Assembly: GCA_050011835.1 (NCBI GenBank)
Contig: JBEKII010000004.1
Span: 8,386-72,385 of the forward strand
Source of the DNA: Minisyncoccia bacterium
GTDB taxonomy: Bacteria; Patescibacteriota; Minisyncoccia; Phycocordibacterales; Phycocordibacteraceae
Length of the DNA stretch: 64,000 bases
Direction: 5' to 3'
Shown: one piece after another, positions 10,074 to 11,159 of the stretch
Position numbering within the stretch: position 1 is the stretch's first letter
Layout: each line of letters begins with the position of its first letter
The notes under the pieces: model-generated
What the model was told of the DNA's origin: nothing
The model's database searches: none
The model's input: the letters and a program-made list of their open reading frames with translations, nothing else
Position numbers and translations under genes: made by a program

Positions 10074-11159
10074 CTACTCACCCATCCAAAACCAAAATTG
10101 TCCTTTAAGTTCTTCTGCGGCTTCATAGGCATCGGCATGGGAGAAAAAGCCAAGGTATGAATTAAGGGAGGCGAGAAGCGTTTCCTCACTCGTCGTGCCA
10201 GCCTTAAATTTCCTGACCTGATCGTGTAATTTACGACTAATCCGCCGCCTTGTTTTCGTGCGTGTTGCGACGTGATATATAAGAGCGACGTAACCGAGAA
10301 AATCGATGCCTTGCCGATATTTTCGAATGAATACTTTATTCGAATGTAGTGATAGCGCGAGCCGTGCATGCAAGAATTCATTGATTTTTGGTATGAGGCT
10401 TTGGAGGTAAGACTGGTCTTCTGATACAATCACAAAATCGTCCGTATATCGCGCGTAATATTTGACTCTCAACTCATGCTTCATAAACTGATCAAATTCG
10501 TTCAGATAGATGTTGGCGAAAAATTGGCTCGTGAGATTGCCGATGGGTACTCCTTTTCTCGTCGTATTTTTACTCTCTCTCTCTCTCTCTCTCTCTCTCT
10601 CTCTCGTAGAGCCCGCCGCCTCGTAGCTTTCGACTATCTCTCTCATAAGCCAACGTGTGTCCGGATCAATGATTCGTTTTTCAAGAATGCCGATCAGGAT
10701 ATCGTGATCGATGCTGTCGAAGAATTTCCACACGTCGCACTTCAGAGAGAAACACGAGTTCTTACCATTTTTGCTTGCCGCGCGAAGGGTTCGCGCCAGA
10801 TATTCCACGCCCTTATGCGTGCCTTTGTCAACTCTGCACGAGAACGAAGTCGGGATAAAGGCCGGCTCGAAAATCGGATTGAGCACTTTGAATATCGCAT
10901 GGTGAAGGACGCGGTCTCGTACCGCTGCTTTGTGTATGCGGCGCAGTTTTGGATCATGAATCAAGAACATTTGATACGCTCCATGGCGATAATGCTTGAT
11001 ACGCAATTCGCGAGCCAGTTTGAAAATTTCATATTCAACATTTTTCTCAAATACTTCAACATCAGGCCTATTTCGCTTGTCGCGTTTGAAAAAATTCCAC
11101 GCCTCGAACAGATTTTCTGTCGAGGTTATCTGCCCATATAAATCCTTATATACCTTCAT
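10074..11159 (-). CDS. brt: DGR reverse transcriptase (bRT-like)
   Basis: N-terminus MKVYKDLYGQITSTENLFEAWNFFKRDKR parallels Bordetella-phage bRT; FLIHDPKLRRIHKAAVRDRVLHHAI; CRVDKGTHKGV; DGR-specific motif 4 PIGNLTSQFFANIY (I/LGxxxSQ instead of QGxxxSP); YxDD box YTDDFVIV. Start trimmed to the Met at 11159 because the upstream extension overlaps avd. Confidence 0.9.
   Translation of the reverse strand: MKVYKDLYGQITSTENLFEAWNFFKRDKRNRPDVEVFEKNVEYEIFKLARELRIKHYRHGAYQMFLIHDPKLRRIHKAAVRDRVLHHAIFKVLNPIFEPAFIPTSFSCRVDKGTHKGVEYLARTLRAASKNGKNSCFSLKCDVWKFFDSIDHDILIGILEKRIIDPDTRWLMREIVESYEAAGSTRERERERERESKNTTRKGVPIGNLTSQFFANIYLNEFDQFMKHELRVKYYARYTDDFVIVSEDQSYLQSLIPKINEFLHARLALSLHSNKVFIRKYRQGIDFLGYVALIYHVATRTKTRRRISRKLHDQVRKFKAGTTSEETLLASLNSYLGFFSHADAYEAAEELKGQFWFWMGE
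10573..10605. repeat. (CT)16 dinucleotide microsatellite inside the RT coding sequence (encodes the (RE)5 run)
   Basis: Direct read: 16 perfect CT units plus C; lies between RT motifs 3 and 4 in an insertion relative to bRT. Confidence 0.95.

What the first reader, a model, noticed from the sequence alone, without database searches (positions are those of the whole stretch)
10573..10605. Perfect (CT)16 microsatellite inside the DGR reverse-transcriptase ORF, a candidate phase-variation switch for mutagenesis
Sixteen perfect CT units encode an (RE)5 loop insertion between RT motifs 3 and 4; bRT has no counterpart there. Dinucleotide tracts of this length are highly prone to slipped-strand mispairing. 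A change of one unit frameshifts the RT before its catalytic YxDD box. A change of three units only alters loop length. This could act as a stochastic ON/OFF switch for DGR activity, which to my knowledge has not been described. The alternative explanation is a low-complexity assembly artefact.
Basis: inference. Interest (0 to 1): 0.75.

Follow-up and report, generated by a model that had tools for sequence, protein, structure and literature searches.

The report
Slippery repeat toggles a mutator gene
A run of 16 CT pairs sits inside the gene for the enzyme that drives targeted hypermutation in this tiny bacterium. The run changes length between otherwise identical genomes, which puts the enzyme's catalytic half in or out of frame, and the same repeat recurs in over a hundred related genes, so it looks like a heritable on/off switch for a mutation generator.

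Summary
The (CT)16.5 tract at 10573-10605 is real and is the only long simple repeat in the 64 kb window. It lies in the reverse transcriptase (RT) of a genuine diversity-generating retroelement (DGR), with RT, Avd and a TR/VR pair whose mismatches fall almost entirely at TR adenines (16 of 17). It encodes (RE)5 in a disordered loop that the Bordetella bRT lacks.

Two other assemblies of the same strain have no mismatch to the window. They differ only in tract length (33, 35 and 37 nt), and both longer alleles split the RT.

A metagenome scan hit its 120-contig limit with GA tracts of 13-51 nt at the same site in related Patescibacteria RTs. A 71-nt tract turned up separately in a reference genome. 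Only 19 of 101 non-redundant loci are in frame, yet both RT halves stay open and TR/VR differences stay adenine-specific. All 73 tract-free homologues are in frame.

The tract is kept in clades that have diverged to 44-48% identity. I found no description of it in the searched literature.

Best reading: a slipped-strand contingency switch gating DGR mutagenesis (confidence 0.6). Main rival: frame rescue by ribosomal or transcriptional slippage. Read-level and expression data are missing.

The parts
10573..10605 (-). Perfect (AG)16.5 tract (CT on the + strand). It encodes the last base of T185, (RE)5 (residues 186-195) and the first two bases of S196. This is the hypermutable element.
   Evidence: Same-strain alleles of 33, 35 and 37 nt.
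10074..11159 (-). DGR reverse transcriptase ORF, 361 aa, identical to NCBI MGD0328672.1 (MAG: Minisyncoccia bacterium).
   Evidence: PDB bRT 8ub7_A at E = 3.2e-45. AF2 model with mean pLDDT 83.
10707..10727 (-). RT motif 3 (KFFDSID, residues 145-151), the last conserved motif upstream of the tract.
   Evidence: Translation. Invariant columns F146 and F147. Used as the upstream frame anchor.
10524..10553 (-). RT motif 4 (GVPIGNLTSQ, residues 203-212), the DGR-type I/LGxxxSQ motif and first conserved motif downstream of the tract.
   Evidence: G203, P205-Q212 invariant.
10437..10448 (-). Catalytic YTDD box (residues 238-241). It is lost from the reading frame when the tract changes by a number of units not divisible by three.
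   Evidence: P0120 ends before it; P0121 is a separate ORF that contains it.
11160..11516 (+). Avd accessory protein gene, divergent from the RT, with start codons abutting.
   Evidence: The same layout is seen in L001, L004 and L005.
11562..11682 (-). Template repeat (TR).
12053..12173 (-). Variable repeat (VR) at the 3' end of the target gene. It differs from the TR at 17 positions, 16 of them at TR adenines.
12048..12839 (-). DGR target gene, 263 aa, with no Pfam or NCBIfam match.

Best explanation
The tract is a genuine hypermutable microsatellite inside a disordered, length-tolerant loop between RT motifs 3 and 4 of a Patescibacteria (Minisyncoccia) DGR reverse transcriptase. Gain or loss of AG units by slipped-strand mispairing during replication moves the catalytic half of the enzyme (motifs 4-7, YTDD, thumb) into or out of frame with the N-terminal half. 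The RT, and with it adenine mutagenesis of the target gene, is thereby switched ON or OFF heritably and reversibly. This is a contingency locus that gates a diversity generator.

Shown here:
- the tract and its position;
- length alleles in otherwise identical genomes, including two that split the RT;
- the same tract at the same site across a large RT clade, with all three frame states;
- intact halves and adenine-specific TR/VR divergence in out-of-frame loci;
- a permissive loop.

Inferred:
- out-of-frame alleles make no active RT;
- individual lineages switch back and forth;
- the tract is maintained by selection for switchability, with OFF favoured once a useful VR variant exists.
For: 1. 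Same-strain alleles. The window has a 33-nt tract (in frame). L001 (JGI 3300038429) has 35 nt and L002 (JGI 3300018013) has 37 nt, both out of frame. blastn gives 0 mismatches and 1 gap over 4193 nt and 1275 nt. IMG called the RT as 219 aa plus 136 aa. Two further assemblies break in the tract or 16 nt from it.
2. Other near-identical pairs differ only in the tract: L065 (15 nt) vs L076 (17 nt), and L074 (18 nt) vs L111 (16 nt). L007/L038 (18 nt) vs L028 (20 nt) have identical 400-nt RT flanks and an identical TR, although those loci are 97.8% identical overall.
3. Orthologues carry pure GA tracts at the same codon position: 27 nt in L003 and 13 nt in L004/L005. About 25 of the top 120 homologues have (RE)2-5 there.
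A 71-nt tract occurs in a Wolfebacteria MAG.
5. Frames in 101 non-redundant loci are 19 in frame, 47 at +1 and 35 at +2. In 53 of 58 out-of-frame loci with enough flank, both halves are open ORFs.
6. Control: 73 of 73 tract-free reference-genome homologues are in frame, against 3 of 7 tract-bearing ones (Fisher p = 2.2e-5).
7. TR/VR mismatches fall at TR adenines in 526 of 568 cases in out-of-frame loci and 203 of 216 in in-frame loci, so out-of-frame DGRs are not decayed. L007 and L028 share an identical TR but differ in the VR at adenine sites.
8. In the AF2 model the only segment with pLDDT below 50 is residues 181-199, which is the tract loop. bRT has a gap there.
9. Tract presence is phylogenetically clustered: 16 Fitch changes against 72.6 in shuffles. 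Pure tract clades of 28 and 25 taxa have diverged to 44-48% identity.
10. In 648 kb of related contigs there is no other kind of dinucleotide tract of 12 nt or more.
11. Roux et al. 2021 (PMC8144416) report lower-than-average activity for the Patescibacteria-restricted DGR clade 2.
Against: - No read-level data were available. Every allele is an assembly consensus, and the three alleles of this strain come from different samples, so coexistence within one population is not shown.
- No expression data exist, so an out-of-frame DNA allele has not been shown to mean no active RT.
- In-frame alleles are rarer (18.8%) than the one-third expected from neutral switching (binomial p = 0.0015). This fits selection for OFF, but it fits equally well a system in which the DNA frame does not determine expression.
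- About a quarter of related loci, though not this window, have a strong hairpin directly 3' of the tract. That is what a frameshift stimulator would look like.
- The phylogeny is a quick neighbour-joining tree on about 150 residues from biased sampling.
- The claim that Patescibacteria lack mismatch repair was not tested.
Confidence: 0.6

Rival explanations
1. Recoding. The DNA frame is not decisive because the frame is restored during expression. In a GA repeat a P-site tRNA (Glu on GAG, Arg on AGA) re-pairs perfectly after a +2 or -2 shift. An RNA-DNA hybrid inside a tract longer than about 11 nt can likewise realign by 2 nt. The tract would then be a leaky attenuator that keeps RT levels low, not an ON/OFF switch.
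For: In-frame alleles are under-represented relative to one third. Both halves are conserved and open in 53 of 58 out-of-frame loci. Adenine-specific TR/VR divergence is as clean in out-of-frame loci as in in-frame ones. Of 127 loci, 33 have a stable hairpin in the 0-30 nt after the tract, and several are perfect 8-10 bp GC palindromes. In several +1 alleles a TAA stop directly follows the tract (Nstop+ = 0; L177), where a -2 slip would restore the frame. That last step is my inference.
Against: There is no fixed frame relation. All three states occur, even within one strain, unlike known programmed frameshifts. The position of the first stop after the tract varies from 0 to 226 nt. Hairpins are absent from most loci and from this window (MFE 0). 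Slippage on dinucleotide repeats is not an established recoding signal to my knowledge, and no paper was found.
Confidence: 0.2
2. Neutral mutational hot spot. A microsatellite arose in a permissive loop and persists and grows by slippage in small genomes with weak repair. Out-of-frame alleles are plain loss-of-function variants with no regulatory value.
For: The loop is disordered and variable in length and sequence across homologues. Sporadic broken DGR RTs are known (nonsense, IS insertion, frameshift; DiGReF paper PMC3521204). An unrelated deletion-split RT also occurs in a relative (P0124/P0125).
Against: A site that inactivates the gene two times out of three should be removed quickly by synonymous interruptions (CGN, GAA). 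Instead, pure tracts persist in clades that have diverged to 44-48% identity and run against the gene's own codon usage (3e-7). Out-of-frame loci show no further decay. No other dinucleotide tract type of 12 nt or more occurs in 648 kb of the same genomes.
Confidence: 0.13
3. Split RT. The tract marks a junction between two genes, and the catalytic half is translated separately and assembles with the N-terminal half.
For: Two open halves are the commonest configuration.
Against: In 45 of 89 out-of-frame loci there is no ATG, GTG or TTG in the C-terminal frame between the last stop and motif 4. Only 6 of 89 have a start codon with a Shine-Dalgarno-like motif. In this strain the first start in the downstream frame lies after motif 4 (P0121). 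In-frame single-ORF alleles exist in the same strains.
Confidence: 0.04
4. Sequencing or assembly artefact. Tract lengths are mis-called in low-complexity sequence.
For: Dinucleotide repeats show PCR stutter. Two assemblies break at the tract. All data are consensus contigs.
Against: Tracts of 14-17 nt, well within read accuracy, are also mostly out of frame (4 in frame of 25). Independent assemblers and projects (JGI, ENA, NCBI) agree that a tract is present. Identical lengths recur in independent contigs of the same strain for six pairs. All 73 tract-free homologues are in frame.
Confidence: 0.03

Closest known systems
Simple-sequence contingency loci (Moxon's 'localized hypermutation'), in particular the CT-dinucleotide repeats in the 5' coding regions of Helicobacter pylori outer-membrane protein genes such as sabA (PMC2715451), hopZ and oipA
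   Same: A perfect short-unit repeat lies inside an ORF. Unit gain or loss by slipped-strand mispairing shifts the frame. ON and OFF alleles occur in otherwise identical genomes. Many alleles are OFF at any one time. The repeat is even the same dinucleotide (CT/AG).
   Different: The gated gene is not a surface antigen, adhesin or glycosyltransferase. It is the polymerase of a targeted hypermutation system. The tract lies mid-gene in an enzyme loop rather than near the 5' end. The hosts are uncultured environmental Patescibacteria, not host-adapted pathogens. The 2025 phase-variation review (PMC11868660) does not mention retroelements or reverse transcriptases.
Phasevarions: phase-variable DNA methyltransferase (mod) genes with intragenic repeats
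   Same: A repeat inside an enzyme ORF switches an activity whose effects spread to other loci. It is a second-order switch.
   Different: Phasevarions change methylation and hence expression of many genes. Here the downstream effect would be the rate of sequence diversification of one target gene.
Canonical DGR of Bordetella phage BPP-1 (bRT-Avd, PDB 8ub7)
   Same: RT with the I/LGxxxSQ motif 4 and YxDD, an Avd partner, and a TR/VR pair with adenine-specific differences at the 3' end of a target gene.
   Different: bRT has no residues opposite the 20-residue loop that holds the tract. Here avd is inverted between the TR and the RT. I know of no intragenic repeat or frame switch reported for bRT.
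Programmed frameshifting or transcriptional slippage that limits enzyme levels in mobile elements (IS1/IS3 transposases, dnaX, retroviral gag-pol)
   Same: Two conserved ORF halves in different frames are joined at a repetitive 'slippery' stretch, sometimes with a hairpin just downstream.
   Different: Known cases have one fixed frame relation and a heptameric or homopolymeric slippery site. Here all three frame relations occur, the repeat is a dinucleotide of very variable length, and most loci have no hairpin.
Contingency loci in phage genomes (bioRxiv 10.1101/2025.10.21.683753)
   Same: A recent extension of repeat-driven reversible frameshifts to mobile or parasitic genetic elements (abstract).
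   Different: According to its abstract that work concerns coliphages T2 and T4, not a retroelement polymerase. I did not read it in full.

Membership tests
Diversity-generating retroelement (DGR) | Reverse transcriptase of the DGR clade with motif 4 I/LGxxxSQ and catalytic YxDD | tested here: met
   RVT_1 E = 7.6e-23. GVPIGNLTSQ and YTDD are present. The best solved relative is Bordetella bRT 8ub7_A, E = 3.2e-45.
Diversity-generating retroelement (DGR) | TR/VR repeat pair whose differences fall at TR adenines, with the VR at the 3' end of a target ORF | tested here: met
   121-nt pair, 11562-11682 and 12053-12173, 86% identity. Of 17 mismatches, 16 are at TR adenines. The VR ends 5 nt before the end of ORF 12048-12839.
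Diversity-generating retroelement (DGR) | Accessory protein Avd | tested here: met
   PF22296 bAvd at 1.5e-16. NF033474 DivGenRetAVD at 78.2 bits, just under its cut-off of 80.
Diversity-generating retroelement (DGR) | Ongoing mutagenic retrohoming (VR heterogeneity within a population) | not testable with these tools
   This needs reads. Indirect evidence only: L001 ends inside the VR, and the close relatives L007 and L028 differ at VR adenine sites with an identical TR.
SSR contingency locus (slipped-strand phase variation) | Perfect short-unit repeat, far longer than chance, within an ORF or promoter | tested here: met
SSR contingency locus (slipped-strand phase variation) | Repeat number varies among otherwise identical or near-identical genomes | tested here: met
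   33, 35 and 37 nt with 0 mismatches in the flanks. Further pairs: 15/17 nt and 16/18 nt in near-identical loci, and 18/20 nt with identical 400-nt flanks.
SSR contingency locus (slipped-strand phase variation) | Length changes switch the gene between an intact and a truncated reading frame, and both states are found in nature | tested here: met
   P0122 (361 aa) versus P0120 plus P0121 (219 and 136 aa). Frame counts are 19 in frame, 47 at +1 and 35 at +2 across 101 loci.
SSR contingency locus (slipped-strand phase variation) | High-frequency, reversible switching within a clonal lineage, with a corresponding phenotype switch | not testable with these tools
   This needs reads, cultures or reporters. 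Indirect support: out-of-frame loci show no secondary decay.
Programmed ribosomal frameshift or transcriptional slippage site | A fixed, conserved frame relation between the two ORFs | tested here: not met
   All three relations occur, even within one strain.
Programmed ribosomal frameshift or transcriptional slippage site | A conserved stimulatory element (downstream structure, or a stop codon at a fixed position) | tested here: inconclusive
   Hairpins of -5 kcal/mol or stronger occur in 33 of 127 loci and are absent from this window. The stop position after the tract ranges from 0 to 226 nt.

The most novel reading that the evidence does not exclude
The (GA)n tract, in some lineages together with a perfect GC hairpin directly downstream, is a new kind of recoding signal. 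Ribosomes or RNA polymerase slip by two nucleotides on the dinucleotide repeat, so a small and tunable fraction of full-length RT is made whatever the DNA frame. DNA-level length changes then act as a rheostat on top of that. This would explain why in-frame alleles are rarer than chance while both RT halves and adenine-specific VR diversification are preserved in out-of-frame genomes.
Probability: 0.17. Interest if true: 0.9.

Novelty: new variant of a known kind. Interest (0 to 1): 0.8.

Why it matters
DGRs are the most extreme natural protein diversifiers, yet how cells control when they run is largely unknown. A conserved slippery repeat that flips the RT in and out of frame would give DGRs a built-in, heritable, stochastic gate. 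A few cells explore target-protein variants while most keep a variant that works. That makes it a contingency locus controlling a hypermutator, which is second-order evolvability.

It has practical consequences too. Most tract-bearing RTs are split in assemblies, so HMM- or ORF-based DGR surveys probably under-count or mis-call DGRs in Patescibacteria. It may also contribute to the lower apparent activity reported for the Patescibacteria DGR clade (PMC8144416).

It also gives a directly testable, read-countable marker of DGR ON/OFF state in metagenomes. If the recoding alternative is right instead, it would be a new class of frameshift signal.

Tried and rejected
- An exact-sequence look-up of the window RT found no contig, although the identical protein is in the collection as P0122. 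Neighbouring genes were used instead.
- The viral-contig scan for the tract plus motif 4 pattern found nothing, so this is not a phage feature in that collection.
- Split RT with independent initiation was rejected.
- A conserved 'shifty stop' after the tract was rejected because stop positions vary.
- My first frame caller, a motif 3 regex, left 49 loci unclassified. It was replaced by tblastn of the N-terminal and C-terminal halves, which agreed with every earlier call it could also classify.
- P0124/P0125 looked like a second repeat-split RT but turned out to be a deletion upstream of the loop.
- Seven literature searches and reading of the DGR surveys PMC5758913, PMC3521204 and PMC8144416 and the phase-variation review PMC11868660 found no description of a repeat or phase switch in a DGR RT.
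- Paul et al. 2017 (Nature Microbiology), the key paper on DGRs in these bacteria, is not held and could not be checked.
- No Pfam or NCBIfam family matched the target protein.

Full report
**Observation**

The window holds a perfect CT tract at 10573-10605: 33 nt, 16.5 units, 100% match. A 12-mer of it is expected 0.01 times in dinucleotide-preserving shuffles. No other simple repeat in the 64 kb comes close; the next longest are (CG)6 and three T8 runs.

On the minus strand the tract lies inside a 361-codon ORF, 10074-11159. This ORF is a reverse transcriptase (RVT_1 E = 7.6e-23) and is identical to NCBI MGD0328672.1, annotated as a Minisyncoccia (Patescibacteria) MAG protein.

The tract reads T185-(RE)5-S196, entirely as AGA-GAG codons. 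Elsewhere in the gene AGA is 4 of 28 Arg codons and GAG is 8 of 23 Glu codons. Codon choice alone would give this run with probability 3e-7, so the repeat is a DNA-level feature and not a protein-level one.

**Context: a genuine DGR**

- An Avd gene lies at 11160-11516 on the opposite strand.
- A 121-nt TR/VR pair lies at 11562-11682 and 12053-12173. It differs at 17 positions, 16 of them at TR adenines.
- The VR sits at the 3' end of a 263-aa target ORF.

The tract lies between RT motif 3 (KFFDSID) and the DGR-type motif 4 (GVPIGNLTSQ), upstream of YTDD. The solved Bordetella bRT (8ub7_A, E = 3.2e-45) has a 20-residue gap opposite AAGSTRERERERERESKNTT. In an AlphaFold2 model with mean pLDDT 83, residues 181-199 are the only segment below 50. 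The repeat therefore sits in a disordered loop that tolerates length changes.

**Length alleles in the same strain**

The homologue search returned a 219-aa protein (P0120) that is 100% identical to the N-terminal 54% of the RT. It continues RERERERERER-VKIRREKEY...*, which is the reading expected after gain of one AG unit. Its contig, L001 from JGI sample 3300038429, carries a 35-nt tract. A second contig, L002 from JGI 3300018013, carries 37 nt.

Against the window, L001 (4193 nt) and L002 (1275 nt) have no mismatches and a single gap each, located in the tract. Both alleles split the RT before motif 4 and YTDD. Two more assemblies of the strain end inside the tract (L208, Logan SRR13021941) or 16 nt from it (L207, JGI 3300038423).

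**The tract is a clade-wide feature**

Orthologues at 69-73% identity carry pure GA tracts at the same codon position: 27 nt in a Pacebacteria MAG and 13 nt in two JGI contigs. About 25 of the 120 best homologues have (RE)2-5 there. Most of the rest have SRPNLFERRG instead.

I scanned the metagenome collection for (GA)6G, a 10-30 nt gap and then a degenerate motif 4. I called frames by tblastn of N-terminal and C-terminal query halves. After removing seed loci and duplicates, 101 loci gave 19 in frame, 47 at +1 and 35 at +2.

In 53 of 58 out-of-frame loci with enough flanking sequence, both halves are open ORFs of normal length. Tracts of only 13-17 nt are also mostly out of frame (4 in frame of 25), which argues against assembly error. 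I checked three reference MAGs by hand (Harrisonbacteria L177, Wolfebacteria L184 with a 71-nt tract, and L167). In each, the two halves join at the tract in different frames.

**Controls**

- Among 80 RT homologues from reference genomes, all 73 without a tract of 13 nt or more are in frame. Of the 7 with such a tract, 4 are out of frame (Fisher p = 2.2e-5).
- In 648 kb of the scanned contigs there is no dinucleotide tract of 12 nt or more of any other type.
- Among clusters with near-identical flanks, three further pairs differ in tract length: 18 vs 20 nt, 15 vs 17 nt and 16 vs 18 nt. Six pairs share the same length.

**Out-of-frame DGRs are not dead**

TR/VR pairs were found in 46 loci. 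Mismatches fall at TR adenines in 526 of 568 cases for out-of-frame loci and 203 of 216 for in-frame loci. L007 (18 nt, out of frame) and L028 (20 nt, in frame) are 97.8% identical overall. They have identical TRs and identical RT flanks but different VRs at adenine sites, so the DGR has been active since they diverged.

Tract presence is strongly clustered on a quick neighbour-joining tree of the C-terminal half: 16 parsimony changes against 72.6 in shuffles. Pure tract clades of 28 and 25 taxa have diverged to 44-48% identity. A site that breaks the gene two times in three would be expected to be stabilised by synonymous interruptions. Its persistence in pure form suggests that it is maintained.

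**Mechanism**

The best-supported reading is a slipped-strand contingency switch (confidence 0.6). Unit gain or loss moves the catalytic half of the RT in or out of frame, which turns DGR mutagenesis ON or OFF heritably and reversibly. The alleles, frames, conservation and permissive loop are shown. Loss of activity in out-of-frame alleles, reversibility within a lineage and adaptive value are inferred.

In-frame alleles are rarer than the neutral one third (18.8%, p = 0.0015). This fits selection for OFF once a useful VR exists. It also agrees with the lower apparent activity reported for the Patescibacteria-restricted DGR clade 2 (PMC8144416).

**Rivals**

- Recoding (0.2). On a GA repeat a ±2 shift restores perfect codon-anticodon or hybrid pairing. 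In-frame alleles are under-represented. Of 127 loci, 33 have a strong hairpin right after the tract. Against this, the frame relation is not fixed, the stop positions vary, and this window has no hairpin.
- Neutral hot spot (0.13). This fits the permissive loop, but not the deep retention, the purity of the tract or the lack of further decay.
- Split RT (0.04). It fails because 45 of 89 out-of-frame loci have no possible start codon before motif 4.
- Artefact (0.03). It is contradicted by the short-tract results and the controls.

**Comparison with known systems and novelty**

The element passes every testable criterion for a DGR and for an SSR contingency locus. It fails the fixed-frame criterion of programmed frameshifting. 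The closest analogues are the CT-repeat phase-variable outer-membrane protein genes of Helicobacter pylori and the phase-variable mod genes (phasevarions).

What is new is the gated function, a targeted hypermutation engine, and the host group. Seven full-text searches, the main DGR surveys and a 2025 phase-variation review contain no such description. Paul et al. 2017 could not be read. I rate it a new variant of a known kind, with interest 0.8.

**What is missing**

Per-read tract lengths, comparison of RNA and DNA tract lengths, and expression of cloned alleles are all missing. Each would separate the switch model from the recoding model.

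Noticed in passing
window 9973-9999 and 13059-13085: The last 27 nt of tRNA-Arg(ccg) (gene at 9926-9998) recur, with 21 of 27 matches, directly after the DGR target gene and just before the stop of the hydrogenase-like ORF. The roughly 3.1-kb DGR cassette (RT, Avd, TR, target) is therefore bracketed by a tRNA 3' end and a degenerate copy of it, like an att pair left by integration. No integrase lies inside.
   Followed up: partly
window 11157-11162; also L001 919/920, L004 1809/1810, L005 460/461: The avd and RT start codons abut head to head (CAT|ATG) with no intergenic space, and avd is inverted between the TR and the RT. 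Promoters must therefore lie inside the neighbouring coding sequences, and a TR-RT co-transcript would carry antisense avd. The layout is conserved in relatives.
   Followed up: partly
L082, L065/L076, L120, L092, L093, L079, L087, L059, L044, L018/L075 (gap between tract and motif 4): Several lineages have perfect 5-10 bp GC palindromes with 3-4 nt loops, for example CTTCTGGCGCGAAGCGCCGGAAG at -17.6 kcal/mol, immediately 3' of the GA tract and inside coding sequence. In all, 33 of 127 loci reach -5 kcal/mol or stronger. The window itself has none.
   Followed up: partly
L184 (MGIW01000005.1, Candidatus Wolfebacteria RIFOXYD12_FULL_48_21), about 3550-3620: A 71-nt (GA)35.5 tract at the same RT site, out of frame. 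This is the longest tract seen.
   Followed up: partly
P0125 and P0124 (cluster of P0003; ENA contig of 14901 nt): A related RT at 68% identity is split into 198 aa plus 143 aa by a deletion and frameshift upstream of the loop (after ...HDILLDLLQ), not by a repeat. This is an ordinary broken RT for contrast.
   Followed up: no
L058 588-647 and 707-767; L113 920-952: L058 carries two copies of the tract plus motif 4 unit 120 nt apart, a local duplication. L113 has a second 33-nt GA/CT tract about 11 kb away from its RT tract.
   Followed up: no
L001 end (= window 12078); L207 and L208 ends: Contigs of this strain tend to end inside the VR (L001) or at the GA tract (L207, L208). These are the two places where population heterogeneity would break an assembly graph.
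   Followed up: partly
window 8702-9244 and 13086-14381: The genes flanking the cassette are a pyruvoyl-dependent arginine decarboxylase (PF01862, E = 8.5e-62) and a 431-aa ORF that looks like a hydrogenase large subunit by eye (C-terminal DPCMSCASH). The second was not checked against any library.
   Followed up: no
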